Shown: positions 47,101 through 62,160 of the stretch, in pieces
Layout: each line of letters begins with the position of its first letter
How positions within the stretch are numbered: position 1 is the stretch's first letter
Virus record (IMG/VR): IMGVR_UViG_3300023296_000994
DNA from: a virus
DNA: 64,000 nt
Reading direction: 5' to 3' (one strand)
Program-made: the position numbers and the translations under genes
Notes under the pieces: generated by a model
The model's database searches: none
The model's input: the letters and a program-made list of their open reading frames with translations, nothing else
What the model was told of the DNA's origin: nothing

Positions 47101-47313
47101 AACCTTTACCGGCGGTCATACCGGGAACCGTAACGTAATCCTTTCGGATCAGGCTGCGATTGCAAACTGAGTGTCGCTGTTTAAGCGTGTGTAACCTCAT
47201 AATGTCCGTTGTATGCTGTCAATACCGGTCTACCCCGTTTATCACTTACCTAGTGGAGTAGCCCGCATCCGAGAGCGGGGTCCAGACATATCGTATACAT
47301 TAATCATCGGTTG
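47101..47313 (-). ncRNA. ssrA: circularly permuted (two-piece) tmRNA
   Basis: Acceptor piece (GGAC-CCCGC-loop-GCGGG-CTACTCC-A, ends 47254) precedes coding piece (GGGGTAGACCGGTATTGACAGC, starts 47236); 7-bp acceptor stem with G3-U70; tag SDTQFAIAA-stop at 47178..47149; outer ends approximate. Confidence 0.85.
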
Positions 47314-49707: not shown

Positions 49708-49784
49708 TACTCCAGGTGGGACTCGAACCCACGTGTGACCAGCTACCCTTTCTACAAGATATAAGCTTGAGGGGATACAGGAGC
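49708..49784 (-). tRNA. atypical tRNA-like RNA, anticodon UAU (Ile), no canonical D-arm
   Basis: Acceptor GCTCCTG/CTGGAGT-A, perfect T-arm GTGGG-TTCGAGT-CCCAC, CAAG-CTTATAT-CTTG arm. Confidence 0.7.
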
Positions 49785-49808
49785 ATGTAATTTGTGTTAT
49801 CATCACCA

Positions 49809-49865
49809 ACAATACTAAGATACGTCATTGACCTGATATAGCCAAATTATTTGGTAACTTTAACA
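49809..49865 (-). promoter_or_regulatory. repeated early promoter, copy 1
   Basis: TGTTAAAGTT..TTTG-N20-TATCTTAG-TATTGT. Confidence 0.8.
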
Positions 49866-49871
49866 AATCTT

Positions 49872-50468
49872 TTATTTTATCAAATGAGCATTAGCTTCTC
49901 TGATACCTGAATTGGTTACATATACACAGTCGGGATAAAATTCTTCAATATTTGGTGCACCACAATATGATAGTGCAGATCGTAATCCATCCAATATATC
50001 ACTTATAATGTATTTAACTCCGCCCTTATATGGTATTAATGCTGATTCACCTTCTACGTTACGTACAACACCGCTGGTGGCTGTTTTAACTTCAGCGGAA
50101 GCCGAACCCCTATATCGCTTGTATAGTCCGGTGTCGGTCTGTACAATCGTCCCCGGTGATTCTTCGGTTCCGGCTAACATAGAACCTAACATAACACACT
50201 GAGCACCGACAGCGAGCGCCTTAGCTATGTCACCACTTGACCTAATGCCACCATCAGCCATAATTGGAACGCCGGGAGCCACCGTAGATATTTCATCTAT
50301 ACATGTTACGTTGGGTACTCCGAATCCGGTTTTGATTCTTGTTGTACATAAAGAATTATGGACAATCGTTCCATTTATGTTGTATGTAAAATTATCATCT
50401 ACTGCCAAATCAAAAACTTGTCCAGAATATGATTTTTTTTCAATTTTATTTATTCTTTTTAGTTTCAT
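49872..50468 (-). CDS. guaB: split intein C-part (38 aa) fused to IMPDH/GMP reductase C-half
   Basis: VFDLAV..YNINGTIVHN|SLCTTR; IMADGGI..SGDIAKALA.GA, YRGSAS. Confidence 0.92.
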   Translation of the reverse strand: MKLKRINKIEKKSYSGQVFDLAVDDNFTYNINGTIVHNSLCTTRIKTGFGVPNVTCIDEISTVAPGVPIMADGGIRSSGDIAKALAVGAQCVMLGSMLAGTEESPGTIVQTDTGLYKRYRGSASAEVKTATSGVVRNVEGESALIPYKGGVKYIISDILDGLRSALSYCGAPNIEEFYPDCVYVTNSGIREANAHLIK

Positions 50469-51319
50469 AAAGTTTTTAATTTGTTTTTGAATTTTCCATT
50501 ATTAATTTCGTCTTCCCATATTCTAATTAACTTAAACCCACGAGATATAGCCCATTCTTCTTTTTCTTTATCTCTTTTTTGTTTAGATAACTGTATTTCA
50601 TTGAGAACTTTCTTTCCACCCGAACCATCTAAGTTATACATATTCGGATTCCCGTGCCAATAATCACCATCAACTTCAATTAATATTCTTTTTTTTCTGA
50701 TGATAAAATCATACTGATATGATGCCAATATTGCTGAGTAATCAAAATGTATATTCAACGACTTTAGATAATCATATATAATAGTTTCTATCTTATTCAT
50801 CTTACAATTCATGAATTGTGACTTATGAGATTCCCTGGCTGCCTTTGCTTTTTCCCTACGATACCCAATTGGGTCTTTTTTCATTCTGTTTTTCTCTCTT
50901 ATAGATGCTCTTTTACTCCAATCGTCGCGAGTATTATCATCCATAGTTTCCCAATATACTCGGAGTTTTTCTTTAATAGTAATCATTGTTTTCTTTGTAT
51001 GAGTTTTTCCATAGAAACCATTATTTTCACCCGATACCAATTCACTCATATTTTTACGATATTCATCCGACTTCACAATACTATCATGCTTATCTTTAAC
51101 TTTTGGACTATACATTGGATTTTTATATTTCATTACACAATTTTTACATTCATACTTTTTTTCAAAAACCGATTTATCATACCATTTTCTTGAAATAAAT
51201 TTATTGCAAGAAATACACTTAATTTTGTACCCATCTTTAAGTGTATTTCTAGGCATGGCATCCGTAATTACTAAATCATTAACTAAAATTTCATTAATCA
51301 TATTTATACATTTTATCAA
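50465..51319 (-). CDS. free-standing Vsr/DUF559-like homing endonuclease
   Basis: YDF..ILIEVDGDYWHGNP..RDKEK..GFKLIRIWE; NUMOD3 FYGKTHTKKT; exact start uncertain. Confidence 0.85.
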   Translation of the reverse strand: MIKCINMINEILVNDLVITDAMPRNTLKDGYKIKCISCNKFISRKWYDKSVFEKKYECKNCVMKYKNPMYSPKVKDKHDSIVKSDEYRKNMSELVSGENNGFYGKTHTKKTMITIKEKLRVYWETMDDNTRDDWSKRASIREKNRMKKDPIGYRREKAKAARESHKSQFMNCKMNKIETIIYDYLKSLNIHFDYSAILASYQYDFIIRKKRILIEVDGDYWHGNPNMYNLDGSGGKKVLNEIQLSKQKRDKEKEEWAISRGFKLIRIWEDEINNGKFKNKLKTL

Positions 51320-51321
51320 AG

Positions 51322-51351
51322 GGAATCACCACCGATTCCTATATATAAATA
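51322..51351 (-). promoter_or_regulatory. late promoter and RNA hairpin ahead of endonuclease
   Basis: TATTTATA (51351..51344) then GGAATC-GGTGGT-GATTCC. Confidence 0.55.
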
Positions 51352-51366
51352 TCATATAAATAAATT

Positions 51367-52290
51367 TTAATCTAATTCTATCAAAAAATATTCACCCGTC
51401 AAATCTTCTGCTTTAACCCATTCGGCATAATCGTGAATGTTATCATCCGTAACTAAATCAGTTTTACTTTGATGAACAACATAGAATTTATGATTAGCAG
51501 TTGCTTCAATACCATCTATATCATATACTTCATCAAAATTACCATATTCAAATTTATTGATAACAGGTTTCAGTTCACCTGTATGAGTATATACTTCATC
51601 ACCTATTTCAACATCTTTAATTTTCTTCAATCCATCAGATGTTTTAACTTTCATATTAGGCGTAAAACAGCCTCCGCCGATACCAACTCGAATACCATCA
51701 ACTCCGTATTTAATAAGACGCTCGGCTGCTTGTGGTGTGGCAACATTACCAGCTATAACATCAACGTGCCCAAATTCATCTGTTTCTTTAATCCATTTAA
51801 TCATGGCATGTACCTTTACATGATCTCCGTGTGCAACGTCAATTAAAATGACATTTACGCCAGCAGCGATTAAATCTGATGTTCGTTTTTTATCATCAAT
51901 CGAAATACCAATAGCTGCCATTACCGGAGGCTTTATATCAATCATTTCACTGGATGGACCTGAAGTATAATGATTCGTGTATCTATGAAACCTCCAAATT
52001 TTAGATGGGTTATGTACTATGTAATCAACTACCTTTATTACTTCATTACATTGCTTTTCAATAGACATAAATCTATGAATACATCCAACACCACCAACTT
52101 TATATAATTCGATTGCCATAACTGAATCACATACTGTATCCATAGGTGACGCTACAATTGGAATTGCTAAATTATATCTCCGACTTAACTTGGTAGATAA
52201 ATCCACATCTTTCCTACTATTAATTTCCGAATACGATGGTACAAGTTGAATGTCATCGTATGTTAAATAAGGTGTTCTATTGATATCCAT
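51367..52290 (-). CDS. guaB: IMPDH/GMP reductase N-half (no CBS domains) with split intein N-part (100 aa)
   Basis: LTYDD, SPMDTV, IHRF, IDVAHG, AGNVAT, RVGIGGG|CFTPN..ATANHKFY..AEDL. Confidence 0.92.
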   Translation of the reverse strand: MDINRTPYLTYDDIQLVPSYSEINSRKDVDLSTKLSRRYNLAIPIVASPMDTVCDSVMAIELYKVGGVGCIHRFMSIEKQCNEVIKVVDYIVHNPSKIWRFHRYTNHYTSGPSSEMIDIKPPVMAAIGISIDDKKRTSDLIAAGVNVILIDVAHGDHVKVHAMIKWIKETDEFGHVDVIAGNVATPQAAERLIKYGVDGIRVGIGGGCFTPNMKVKTSDGLKKIKDVEIGDEVYTHTGELKPVINKFEYGNFDEVYDIDGIEATANHKFYVVHQSKTDLVTDDNIHDYAEWVKAEDLTGEYFLIELD

Positions 52291-53366: not shown

Positions 53367-53454
53367 CGGAGGGAGTGAGATTCGAACTCACGATACGCTG
53401 TTAACGTACTACTTGTTTTCAAGACAAGTCCCTCGGGCCATCCGGACCCCCTCC
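53367..53454 (-). tRNA. tRNA-Ser(UGA)
   Basis: GGAGGGG/TCCCTCC-G, CTTGT-CTTGAAA-ACAAG, long variable arm, TTCGAAT T-loop. Confidence 0.85.
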
Positions 53455-55125: not shown

Positions 55126-55183
55126 TACAATACTAAGATACGGCGAAAACCTGATATCGCCAACTCTTTCTGAAACTTTAACA
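55126..55183 (-). promoter_or_regulatory. repeated early promoter, copy 2
   Basis: TGTTAAAGTTT-N8-GTTG-N20-TATCTTAG-TATTGT. Confidence 0.8.
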
Positions 55184-56254: not shown

Positions 56255-56313
56255 TACAGTACTAAGATACGCATAGTAATCCGTAAATACAAATTTCTTT
56301 CAAACTTTAACAT
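56255..56313 (-). promoter_or_regulatory. repeated early promoter, copy 3
   Basis: ATGTTAAAGTTT-N8-TTTG-N20-TATCTTAG-TACTGT. Confidence 0.8.
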
Positions 56314-58720: not shown

Positions 58721-58779
58721 TACAATACTAAGATACAACATTCACCTGACTCAATCAAGCGATTGCTAAACTTTAACAT
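58721..58779 (-). promoter_or_regulatory. repeated early promoter, copy 4
   Basis: ATGTTAAAGTTT-N8-CTTG-N20-TATCTTAG-TATTGT. Confidence 0.8.
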
Positions 58780-60030: not shown

Positions 60031-60088
60031 ACAATACTAAGATACAAAATGGCATTGGAATATCCAAATCTTGTTGAAACTTTAACAT
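60030..60088 (-). promoter_or_regulatory. repeated early promoter, copy 5
   Basis: ATGTTAAAGTTT-N8-TTTG-N20-TATCTTAG-TATTGT-ATG. Confidence 0.8.
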
Positions 60089-61789: not shown

Positions 61790-62077
61790 TTAGATTACCC
61801 GAGAAATAGCTTCGTTAGCAGTAGCATCATTCGAACGACGAACTGAATCCGGGCTCATTTCATTCATAGCGAACCAGAATGCCCGGCGGTTGTATCGCCC
61901 TACAATAGTACGATATACAGATTTTAAATCAGTATACGACATGACTGTAATCTCATTGGTATCAAGGTCAACTTGTGACGCTGTTACCCATTCATGAGTC
62001 TCACCAACGTATCCGACGAGGGAATATTCTCGGAAGACAATAATCTTGCTTTCTGAAATTTGATGTGATGTTATCAT
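61790..62077 (-). CDS. hypothetical early protein
   Basis: First ORF after an early promoter. Confidence 0.45.
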   Translation of the reverse strand: MITSHQISESKIIVFREYSLVGYVGETHEWVTASQVDLDTNEITVMSYTDLKSVYRTIVGRYNRRAFWFAMNEMSPDSVRRSNDATANEAISRVI

Positions 62078-62101: not shown

Positions 62102-62160
62102 TACAGTACTAAGATACGCATACCAGTTGAGTATTCCAAATCTTTTTGAAACTTTAACAT
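62102..62160 (-). promoter_or_regulatory. repeated early promoter, copy 6
   Basis: ATGTTAAAGTTT-N8-TTTG-N20-TATCTTAG-TACTGT. Confidence 0.8.

What the first reader, a model, noticed from the sequence alone, without database searches (positions are those of the whole stretch)
49708..49784. tRNA-Ile(UAU)-like RNA with the D-loop motif 3' of the anticodon arm, directly upstream of an RNA ligase
Seen: GCTCCTG TA TCCCCT CAAG CTTATAT CTTG TAGAAAGGG TAGCTGGTCACAC GTGGG TTCGAGT CCCAC CTGGAGT A. The T-arm is perfect and the acceptor stem near-normal (G-U at pair 1, one U-U mismatch). The anticodon loop has canonical C32/U33/A37, but there is no D-arm between acceptor and anticodon arm. Instead CCC pairs with GGG downstream of the anticodon arm, and a typical D-loop sequence (TAGCTGGT, with GG) sits where the variable region should be. 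Total length is a normal 77 nt. It is the first element after early promoter copy 1 and is followed by the Rnl2 ligase. Established: UAU anticodons are rare in bacteria. Inference: a rewired topology that may still give the L-shape, possibly evading tRNA-targeting defence nucleases or acting as a decoy.
Basis: partly seen in the sequence, partly recalled or inferred. Interest (0 to 1): 0.8.

Follow-up and report, generated by a model that had tools for sequence, protein, structure and literature searches.

The report
Rewired phage isoleucine tRNA gene
This 77-base phage gene is a conserved transfer RNA, most likely for the isoleucine codon AUA, whose D-arm is wired in a different order from the textbook cloverleaf; hundreds of phages share the layout, gene finders miss it, and I found no paper that describes it.

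Summary
The element exists as described, on the minus strand (49784 to 49708). ARAGORN misses it, and Rfam's tRNA model scores 26.9 bits, below its cut-off of 29.

It is not a decayed tRNA. Pattern scans found 268 copies (160 distinct sequences) in phage contigs, 77 cultured Streptomyces phages and a crAss-like phage. None was in an isolate bacterial genome.

All five proposed helices or pairs covary:
- The purine after "UA" in the D-loop motif covaries with the last base before the T-stem, like the canonical 15-48 pair.

The scaffold carries only isoleucine anticodons (UAU, GAU, CAU). It lies inside tRNA arrays on the tRNA strand and fills the isoleucine slot that the canonical tRNAs there leave empty. 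AUA makes up 41% of isoleucine codons in this 35% G+C T4-like phage.

Best reading (0.78): a working tRNA-Ile(UAU) in which the D-stem's 5' strand and the D-loop sit after the anticodon arm. Expression and charging are untested.

The RNA ligase neighbour is unique to this phage. Nothing here supports the decoy or nuclease-evasion ideas.

This scan has reported the same class before on other DNA. I found no published description.

The parts
49708..49784 (-). Whole rewired tRNA-Ile(UAU) gene, 77 nt. Alignment column i corresponds to window position 49785 - i.
   Evidence: The family covariance model R1 scores it at 87.3 bits; the window sequence was in the training alignment.
49778..49784 (-). 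Acceptor stem 5' strand, GCUCCUG.
   Evidence: Pairs with 49709-49715. All 7 pairs covary across the family.
49776..49777 (-). U8 A9. Both are invariant in 135 distinct members and were not fixed by the search patterns.
49772..49775 (-). U + CCC. This is the first strand of the D-like helix and sits spatially where canonical 22-25 would (inference).
   Evidence: Columns 11-13 pair with columns 37-39 in every row of A2. A2 was drawn from copies filtered for these three pairs; 268 of 269 real copies have them. RNAalifold predicts the helix independently. Column 10 is U, or A in 4 members; A would pair with U40.
49755..49771 (-). C26-like base, a U-U pair, the anticodon stem CAAG/CUUG, and the loop CUUAUAU. 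The anticodon UAU is at 49761-49763.
   Evidence: All four stem pairs covary.
49749..49754 (-). U + AGAAA. This is the internal-loop strand joining the anticodon stem to the second D-helix strand. It has the length of a class I variable loop.
   Evidence: Conservation here is partly forced by the search pattern T[AT]GAAA.
49745..49748 (-). GGG + U. This is the second strand of the D-like helix and sits spatially where canonical 10-13 would (inference).
49736..49744 (-). D-loop sequence AGCUGGUCA, corresponding to A14 R15 Y16 Y17 G18 G19 U20 N A21.
   Evidence: Partly fixed by the search pattern TARYYGGT.
49733..49735 (-). Linker CAC. C and A are near-invariant. The last base covaries with the R15-like base, like canonical Y48.
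   Evidence: One search counts for column 42 against column 52: A-T 77, G-C 30, G-G 14, A-C 12, G-T 2. This is the highest mutual information of any pair outside the helices.
49716..49732 (-). T-arm GUGGG-UUCGAGU-CCCAC, with the canonical U54 U55 C56 R57 A58.
   Evidence: The T-loop was not constrained by the search patterns, yet UUC is invariant or nearly so.
49708..49715 (-). Acceptor stem 3' strand CUGGAGU plus the discriminator A73. C74 follows in the DNA and CCA is not encoded.
   Evidence: A73 is invariant. The trailer starts with C in at least 173 of 177 distinct member-plus-trailer combinations.
49806..49845 (-). Promoter-like repeat (TTGGCnATATCAGGT ... CGTATCTTAGTATTGT), ending about 21 nt upstream of the gene.
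   Evidence: No sigma-70 consensus was found. Function is inferred.

Best explanation
Window 49784-49708 (minus strand) encodes a working elongator tRNA-Ile with anticodon UAU. It supplies AUA decoding to an AT-rich T4-like phage.

Its secondary structure is a three-way junction, not a cloverleaf. The acceptor stem and T-arm are canonical. The anticodon arm is nested inside a short helix (U-CCC with GGG-U), and a normal D-loop sequence (A14 R15 Y Y G18 G19 U N A21) follows that helix as an open strand running into the T-stem.

Read spatially (inference), this is a canonical tRNA in which positions 10-21 (the 5' strand of the D-stem plus the D-loop) sit in the variable region:
- The chain runs 7 - U8 A9 - [22-25] - 26 - anticodon arm - 44, 45, AAA - [10-13] - [14-21] - C A Y48 - T-arm.
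- All core layers can then form as in an ordinary L-shaped tRNA: G10-C25, U8-A14, R15-Y48, and G18/G19 with psi55/C56.

Inferred steps, none shown here:
- It is transcribed from the phage promoter-like repeat 25 nt upstream.
- Host RNase P and 3' processing cut it out, and the host enzyme adds CCA.
- Host IleRS charges it through the NAU anticodon, A37 and A73.
- It is used on the ribosome.
For: 1. Family. In all I collected 268 copies, 160 of them distinct. BLAST found it in 77 cultured Streptomyces phage records and a crAss-like Kehishuvirus, unannotated in nearly all.

2. Structure.
- 97.3% of cells are paired over 135 distinct sequences, and 18 of 20 pairs show double changes. Partners slid by 1-3 columns give only 36-45% paired.
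- In the D-like helix, 11-39 is CG93/AU31/UA9/GC2 and 12-38 is CG77/UA40/GC11/AU5/UG2.
- RNAalifold returns the same structure unprompted.
- The 14 highest mutual-information pairs all belong to the four helices. The 15-48-like pair (columns 42-52) is the highest-scoring pair between columns that are not in any stem.
- The rival D-hairpin is only 63.7% paired and does not covary.

3. tRNA hallmarks that the search patterns did not force: U8, A9, T-loop UUCRA, A73 and C74.

4. Identity.
- All real members carry UAU (136), GAU (114) or CAU (18).
- Scans for the same scaffold with any other anticodon found only three chance matches.

5. Genomic role.
- 252 of 253 nearest canonical tRNAs are on the same strand, and 115 lie within 10 nt.
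- In 72 arrays with at least 12 canonical tRNAs, the rewired gene duplicates a canonical isoleucine anticodon in only 4. A rewired GAU goes with canonical UAU or none. A rewired UAU or CAU goes with canonical GAU or none.

6. Demand. The window is 35% G+C and AUA makes up 41% of Ile codons, 32.9 per 1000 codons.

7. Plausibility. The E. coli synthetase, EF-Tu and ribosome accept even a tRNA with no D-arm at all (PMC11551756).
Against: - No expression, processing or aminoacylation data.
- The L-shape and the mapping onto canonical positions are inferences. No 3D model could be made.
- Single-sequence folding does not favour the structure. The proposed fold lies on average 3.7 kcal/mol above the MFE, and only 18 of 135 MFE structures contain the D-like helix. 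For the window copy the values are -14.9 against -20.0 kcal/mol. The 3-bp helix must therefore rely on tertiary contacts.
- E. coli IleRS charges a UAU-anticodon tRNA poorly, and an unmodified UAU anticodon reads AUG as well on E. coli ribosomes (PMC3575796). Function therefore depends on the unknown host's IleRS or on a U34 modification.
- The window copy has G-U at 1-72 and a U-U mismatch at 6-67. Both occur in other members.
- Columns 13-15, 20-21, 25, 31-36 and 40-47 were fixed by my search patterns, so their invariance is by construction.
Confidence: 0.78

Rival explanations
1. It is a working tRNA-Ile, and the rewired core exists because it escapes a nuclease that recognises the canonical D-arm or core. 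That nuclease could be a host tRNA-targeting defence or the phage's own host-tRNA degradation. This concerns why the layout exists and is compatible with the best explanation.
For: - The class is confined to phages. Only 29 matching stretches were found in 185,579 species genomes, all on MAG contigs.
- The same layout appears in phage tRNAs with Arg and Tyr anticodons.
- In the window and in the Streptomyces phages the gene lies next to RNA-repair-type genes: an RNA ligase and a weak RlaP match at 23.1 bits.
Against: - No nuclease is identified.
- Known anticodon nucleases read the anticodon loop, which is canonical here.
- Most copies have no RNA-repair neighbour.
- Many carrier phages keep canonical tRNAs for all other amino acids.
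Confidence: 0.2
2. It is an uncharged tRNA mimic: a decoy or sponge for a tRNA-binding defence or regulatory protein, or a processing signal for the downstream mRNA. It is not a decoder.
For: - Non-canonical core.
- Below Rfam's threshold.
- A poor substrate is expected for some IleRS enzymes with a UAU anticodon (PMC3575796).
- In the window it lies 21 nt upstream of the ligase start codon, with no terminator between them.
Against: - A decoy would not need its anticodon restricted to the three isoleucine anticodons.
- It would not complement the canonical isoleucine isoacceptors array by array.
- It would not need A37, A73, C74 and a covarying 7-bp acceptor stem.
Confidence: 0.07
3. It is a decayed or rearranged pseudo-tRNA without function.
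For: - ARAGORN misses it.
- The window copy has one U-U mismatch and one G-U pair in the acceptor stem.
Against: There are 160 distinct sequences, from phages of Actinomycetota and Bacteroidota and from marine and gut contigs. Compensatory changes occur in every helix, and the length is fixed at 76-77 nt.
Confidence: 0.01
4. It is a precursor that is cut and rejoined, for example by the adjacent RNA ligase, into a canonical-order tRNA, as happens with permuted or split tRNA genes.
For: An Rnl2-type ligase gene starts 21 nt downstream.
Against: - The ligase occurs near none of the 268 other copies.
- Restoring canonical order would need two cuts and two joins.
- The covarying helix and the 15-48-like pair are explained by the RNA as encoded.
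Confidence: 0.02
5. The D-loop motif closes on itself as a small D-arm hairpin (GGGU with ACAC) placed 3' of the anticodon arm. On this view the arms are swapped and the strands are not.
For: In the window sequence 3 of 4 such pairs can form.
Against: Across 135 sequences this helix is 63.7% paired. Pair 38-51 is unpaired in 130 of them, and there is no compensatory change.
Confidence: 0.02

Closest known systems
Canonical bacterial and phage tRNA-Ile: GAU, lysidine-CAU (tRNA-Ile2), and the rare UAU form (Mycoplasma mobile, PMC3575796)
   Same: A 7-bp acceptor stem, A73, a T-arm with UUCRA, an anticodon loop with U33, NAU and A37, a D-loop sequence with G18 G19, a length of 77 nt, a place in tRNA arrays, and the same presumed job.
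   Different: There is no D-arm hairpin between positions 9 and 26. One D-stem strand lies before the anticodon arm, and the other strand plus the D-loop lie after it. The secondary structure is a three-way junction. Standard finders fail.
D-arm-lacking mitochondrial tRNAs (for example mt tRNA-Ser(AGY)) and the synthetic 'mini HisT' (PMC7609411, PMC11551756)
   Same: No D-arm hairpin, and a three-helix secondary structure. Mini HisT shows that bacterial translation can tolerate a non-cloverleaf tRNA.
   Different: Those RNAs have lost the D-arm and with it the G18G19/T-loop elbow. Here the D-stem, the D-loop, the 15-48-like pair and the T-loop are all kept and only the connectivity changes. 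The length is normal, not reduced.
Permuted, split and multi-intron tRNA genes (Cyanidioschyzon merolae, PMC3728597; Nanoarchaeota)
   Same: The order of tRNA segments in the gene differs from the order in a canonical tRNA.
   Different: Those genes are restored to a canonical tRNA by splicing and ligation of the RNA. Here the covariation fits the RNA as encoded, and no processing signals or conserved ligase go with it.
allo-tRNAs with 8/4 or 9/3 acceptor/T branches (PMC5389517)
   Same: Non-standard tRNA architecture found by mining metagenomes, including phages.
   Different: allo-tRNAs keep the cloverleaf order and only shift helix lengths. Here the helix lengths are standard and the strand order is changed.

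Membership tests
Canonical cloverleaf tRNA (Rfam RF00005) | 7-bp acceptor stem closed by the 5' and 3' ends, plus a discriminator base. | tested here: met
   The window copy has 6 of 7 standard pairs. All 7 pairs covary across the family, and A73 is invariant.
Canonical cloverleaf tRNA (Rfam RF00005) | T-arm with a 5-bp stem and a 7-nt loop carrying U54 U55 C56 R57 A58. | tested here: met
   GUGGG-UUCGAGU-CCCAC in the window. T-loop columns 58-62 are invariant or nearly so without being forced by the patterns.
Canonical cloverleaf tRNA (Rfam RF00005) | Anticodon arm with a 5-bp stem and a 7-nt loop carrying U33 and a purine at 37. | tested here: met
   Four Watson-Crick pairs plus a conserved U-U pair. 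The loop is CUUAUAU.
Canonical cloverleaf tRNA (Rfam RF00005) | D-arm hairpin between position 9 and position 26. | tested here: not met
   Only U-CCC-C lies between A9 and the anticodon stem. Rfam aligns 4 nt where the model has 15.
Canonical cloverleaf tRNA (Rfam RF00005) | Score at or above the curated gathering threshold, and detection by tRNA finders. | tested here: not met
   26.9 bits against 29. ARAGORN misses the window copy and calls only 4 of 268 members, each with a wrong length.
Canonical L-shaped tRNA core (tertiary pairs) | U8-A14, R15-Y48, G18-psi55 and G19-C56 can all form. | tested here: inconclusive
   The bases are present and conserved, and the 15-48-like columns covary (A-T 77, G-C 30; p 2e-16). 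No 3D structure or probing was possible.
tRNA-Ile (isoleucine identity) | Anticodon GAU, CAU (lysidine) or UAU, with A37 and A73. | tested here: met
   The window copy has UAU, A37 and A73. The family has UAU 136, GAU 114, CAU 18 and no other anticodon.
tRNA-Ile (isoleucine identity) | Aminoacylation by IleRS and decoding of AUA. | not testable with these tools
   Only indirect support: complementarity with the canonical isoleucine isoacceptors in 68 of 72 large arrays and high AUA use.
Rewired phage tRNA-Ile family (defined here by model R1) | A 76-77 nt gene with UAU-NNC-CU, the anticodon arm, U-W-GAAA, GNN, then U-A-R-Y-Y-G-G-U...C-A-Y and the T-arm. | tested here: met
   The window copy matches every element and scores 87.3 bits. 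Members score 81-98 bits and canonical tRNAs score 28 bits or less. The window sequence was in the training alignment.
D-arm-lacking (mitochondrial-type) tRNA | Loss of the D-stem, D-loop and the G18G19/T-loop interaction, giving a shortened molecule. | tested here: not met
   The D-stem-like helix, the full D-loop motif and a canonical T-loop are all present, and the length is 77 nt.
Permuted or split tRNA gene | RNA processing signals and a ligation step that restore canonical order. | tested here: inconclusive
   The ligase neighbour is unique to the window, and the structure covaries as encoded. No RNA reads were available.

The most novel reading that the evidence does not exclude
Phages use a second natural tRNA topology in bacterial cytoplasmic translation. 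It is an L-shape assembled from a non-cloverleaf strand order, with positions 10-21 moved into the variable region. The layout is fixed in a large isoleucine family and is also present in arginine and tyrosine tRNAs. It would be the first non-cloverleaf tRNA class outside mitochondria, and it is invisible to current annotation.
Probability: 0.65. Interest if true: 0.9.

Novelty: new variant of a known kind. Interest (0 to 1): 0.85.

Why it matters
[quoted passage not shown] A 2020 review of non-canonical tRNAs (PMC7609411) never uses the words 'phage' or 'viral'.

If this family is charged and used, several things follow:
- The cloverleaf order is not required for a full-size, elbow-forming tRNA. 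This gives a natural test of which contacts RNase P, the CCA-adding enzyme, IleRS, EF-Tu, modification enzymes and the ribosome really need.
- Phage tRNA sets are under-counted. Isoleucine looks 'missing' from many arrays only because finders skip this gene, and 75 of 77 Streptomyces phage records leave it unannotated.
- It offers a ready scaffold for orthogonal tRNA engineering.
- It raises the question of why phages alone keep it.

Tried and rejected
- **Public sequencing runs.** I tried to find runs that would show expression.
- **Link to the RNA ligase.** tblastn of the window ligase against 269 loci found it only in L001, which lacks the element.
- **Recurring protein partner.** I clustered 1,786 ORFs lying within 1.5 kb of the element in 257 loci. 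Of the ten commonest clusters, nine had no Pfam family and one matched Cpn10. None was an RNA-repair family.
- **D-hairpin fold.** Rejected by pair counts.
- **Single-sequence thermodynamic folding.** Not informative. The window z-score is -0.10, and the proposed fold lies 3.7 kcal/mol above the MFE on average.
- **Same scaffold with non-isoleucine anticodons.** Only chance matches: L240, L129 and L206.
- **Close relatives of the window phage among cultured phages.** None by DNA. By major capsid protein the nearest are Flavobacterium phages 'immuto', at 48% identity.
- **Sigma-70 promoter and terminator scan.** Nothing found.
- **Literature.** Seven full-text searches found no description. One search was badly designed and uninformative.
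- **Rfam gathering-mode run on ten loci.** The list was cut at 150 rows, so it did not show whether other members pass the threshold.

Full report
**Observation**

On the minus strand it reads as follows:
- acceptor strand GCUCCUG
- U8 A9
- U-CCC, then CU
- stem CAAG, loop CUUAUAU, stem CUUG
- UAGAAA, then GGG
- UAGCUGGUCACAC
- T-arm GUGGG-UUCGAGU-CCCAC
- acceptor strand CUGGAGU and A73

ARAGORN finds three ordinary tRNAs in the window (Leu-UAA, Ser-GCU, Met-CAU) but not this one. Rfam's tRNA model reaches 26.9 bits, just under its threshold of 29. It does so by deleting the D-arm and inserting 18 nt in the variable region.

**Setting**

- All large ORFs of the window lie on the minus strand. 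They include a gp23-like major capsid protein, portal, large terminase and baseplate wedge proteins.
- The capsid protein is closest to Flavobacterium phages 'immuto', at 48% identity. This is an uncultured T4-like myovirus, perhaps of Bacteroidota.
- No whole genome is held for the window.
- The element lies between the 3' piece of an intein-split IMPDH/GMP-reductase gene and an RNA ligase (PF09414, phrog_548). The ligase start codon is 21 nt downstream.
- A 14-mer, TATCTTAGTATTGT, lies 25 nt upstream. It is part of a roughly 40-nt repeat. It gives 8 matches at up to 2 mismatches, 7 of them on the minus strand between 49.8 and 62.1 kb, against 1.76 expected by chance. This is probably a phage promoter. 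No sigma-70 consensus is present.

**A large family**

- An exact 25-mer found two IMG/VR contigs. Their interior is nearly identical to the window copy, but the acceptor stem differs by compensatory changes, and a tRNA-Arg(UCU) follows directly.
- With a scan of 185,579 species genomes, I collected 268 copies, 160 of them distinct, in 257 loci.
- The genome scan gave only 29 stretches, all on MAG contigs and none in an isolate genome. One of them was a chance match.
- BLAST found the element in 77 Streptomyces phage records (cluster BE, Samistivirus and relatives) and in the crAss-like Kehishuvirus 'tikkala'.
- It is unannotated in nearly all of these records. In phage EGole it is annotated as 'tRNA-Leu, UUA'. 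Read from the sequence, that gene has a GAU anticodon.

**Structure**

On 135 distinct sequences (alignment A2):
- 97.3% of cells form standard pairs, against 63% after shuffling and 36-45% when partners are slid by 1-3 columns. Eighteen of 20 pairs show changes on both sides.
Pair 12-38 is CG 77, UA 40, GC 11, AU 5, UG 2. Pair 13-37 is always C-G.
- My filter required these three pairs, but it removed only one otherwise good member (L055). The true figure is therefore 268 of 269.
- RNAalifold returns exactly this three-way junction without being told.
- The alternative of a small D-hairpin 3' of the anticodon arm is 63.7% paired and shows no compensation.
- In a mutual-information scan of all column pairs, the top 14 pairs are all helix pairs. 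The strongest pair between unpaired columns links the purine after 'UA' in the D-loop motif to the last base before the T-stem: A-T 77, G-C 30, G-G 14, A-C 12, G-T 2 (Fisher p 2e-16). That is the signature of the canonical R15-Y48 tertiary pair.
- Several features were not constrained by my patterns yet are invariant or nearly so: U8, A9, the 'CA' before that last base, the T-loop UUCRA, A73 and a following C74.
- The invariance of columns 13-15, 20-21, 25, 31-36 and 40-47 is by construction and carries no weight.

**Reading of the fold (inference)**

If the short helix stacks on the anticodon stem, its strands take the following places:
- U-NNC occupies the place of canonical 22-25 and continues through C26 into the anticodon stem, as in any tRNA.
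- GNN-U occupies the place of 10-13 and continues into A14 R15 Y16 Y17 G18 G19 U20 N A21, as in any tRNA.

Three joins differ from the canonical chain:
- A9 runs into 22 instead of 10.
- A21 runs through 'CA' and Y48 into the T-stem instead of into 22.
- The anticodon stem runs through W44 G45 AAA into G10 instead of into the T-stem.

In known tRNA structures each of these pairs of positions is a close neighbour in the core. U8 stacks next to the 13-22 layer, 45 touches the 10-25 pair, and 21 and 48 lie in adjacent layers. An ordinary L-shape is therefore plausible, but I could not model it. Single-sequence folding does not favour the helix, so it must depend on tertiary contacts.

**Function**

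- Every real member carries UAU (136), GAU (114) or CAU (18). Scans for the same scaffold with any other second or third anticodon base returned three chance matches.
- The nearest canonical tRNA is on the same strand in 252 of 253 cases and within 10 nt in 115.
- In 72 loci with at least 12 canonical tRNAs:
  - Rewired GAU goes with no canonical tRNA-Ile (27 loci) or with canonical UAU only (20).
  - Rewired UAU goes with canonical GAU (6) or none (5).
  - Rewired CAU always goes with canonical GAU (6).
  - The same anticodon occurs in both forms in only 4 loci.
- The element therefore fills the isoleucine slot of phage tRNA sets.
- The window phage has 35% G+C and uses AUA for 41% of its isoleucine codons.
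- I conclude that this is most likely a working tRNA-Ile(UAU).
- Caveats:
  - Nothing here shows expression or charging.
  - E. coli IleRS charges a UAU anticodon poorly, and unmodified UAU also reads AUG on E. coli ribosomes (PMC3575796).

**Rivals**

- The ligase neighbour is unique to this phage. No recurring protein partner was found.
- The Streptomyces copies do sit behind a weak RlaP-type nucleotidyltransferase.
- A decoy would not need isoleucine-only anticodons or complementarity with the canonical isoacceptors.
- A pseudogene is excluded by the covariation.
- Whether the layout is kept because it escapes some nuclease remains open. The class is phage-only, which is suggestive but no more than that.

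**Wider class**

The family model scores its members at 81-98 bits and canonical tRNAs at 28 bits or less. Between these lie other tRNA-like genes with the same nested layout but different linkers. These were seen in a handful of sequences each and were not tested for covariation. They include:
- further isoleucine variants
- genes with Arg anticodons (UCU, CCU, UCG, ACG)
- two 94-95 nt genes with the Tyr anticodon GUA

**Novelty**

Seven literature searches found no description. A 2020 review of non-canonical tRNAs never uses the words 'phage' or 'viral'. A 2024 paper states that all known bacterial tRNAs are cloverleaves.

This scan has reported the same class at least eight times on other genomes. 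Those notes agree with what I derived independently here, and they also found no paper.

I rate it a new variant of a known kind, of high interest.

Noticed in passing
window 49872-52290 (-): An IMPDH/GMP-reductase gene lies in three ORFs. The first is the N-terminal half plus the start of a Hint/intein (51367-52290). The second is a free-standing NUMOD3/DUF559/Vsr-like endonuclease ORF (50465-51319). The third is the intein C-terminal splicing region plus the C-terminal half (49872-50468). This is either an intein broken by frame changes or a split intein with its homing endonuclease.
   Followed up: no
window 53368-53454 (-): An 87-nt tRNA-like gene that ARAGORN misses. Rfam's tRNA-Sec model gives 39.5 bits against a threshold of 47. 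It has an acceptor stem, a 6-bp anticodon stem with loop CUUGAAA (anticodon UGA, Ser), a long variable arm, a canonical T-arm, an odd D region and G at position 8. TCA is the commonest Ser codon of the phage.
   Followed up: partly
window 47149-47302 (-): A match to Rfam's permuted tmRNA model at 43 bits against a threshold of 47 (E 1.7e-7 in a local scan). It includes a T-arm-like hairpin and a CUCCAC end. It may be a phage-encoded two-piece tmRNA.
   Followed up: partly
window 49809-49822, 55127-55140, 56256-56269, 58722-58735, 60031-60044, 61902-61915, 62103-62116 (all -): The 14-mer TATCTTAGTATTGT recurs here, within a longer shared motif TTGGCnATATCAGGT...CGTATCTTAGTATTGT. It lies in front of small ORFs and of the rewired tRNA, and is probably a phage promoter class. 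There are 8 matches against 1.76 expected.
   Followed up: partly
L124:2058-2152 (Kehishuvirus 'tikkala' OQ198717, the gap between annotated tRNA-Lys and tRNA-Phe) and L209:9215-9308: These are 94-95 nt unannotated tRNA-like genes with anticodon GUA (Tyr) and the same nested layout: a 4-bp helix around the anticodon arm, then UAAUGG/UAGUGG. A possible extra helix (CUCC/GGAG in one, CUGC/GCAG in the other) would cross the nested helix and form a pseudoknot.
   Followed up: partly
L136:8849-8924, L201:9511-9585, L237:4361-4438, L238:4194-4273, L161:2702-2781, L171:35-113, L195:4872-4949, L215:1377-1456: tRNA-like genes with Arg anticodons (UCU, CCU, UCG, ACG) and the same nested, non-cloverleaf layout. 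ARAGORN misses all of them. Several lie next to a rewired tRNA-Ile.
   Followed up: partly
L125:295-371 (Streptomyces phage EGole MK494112, 75265-75341): The rewired gene is annotated as 'tRNA-Leu, codon recognized UUA'. Read from the sequence, its anticodon loop is CUGAUAA (GAU, Ile). In 75 other Streptomyces phage records the same gene is unannotated, and in phage Coruscant it lies under the FtsK-like CDS.
   Followed up: yes
L123:960-1481 (Streptomyces phage Jay2Jay gp110): The gene directly upstream of the rewired tRNA-Ile in the Streptomyces phages is a nucleotidyltransferase with a borderline match to RlaP, the RNA-repair-pathway pol-beta family (23.1 bits against a cut-off of 23). This is a second RNA-repair-type neighbour, besides the window's ligase.
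   Followed up: partly
L017:5760-6176 (-): A GOLLD RNA (277.9 bits) lies inside a 25-tRNA phage array that also holds a rewired tRNA-Ile(UAU).
   Followed up: no
L124:1495-1571 and seven near-identical crAss-like copies (L130, L193, L207 and others): The crAss-like copies of the rewired tRNA-Ile(GAU) keep two adjacent U-U mismatches in the acceptor stem, at pairs 5-68 and 6-67, on all these contigs.
   Followed up: no
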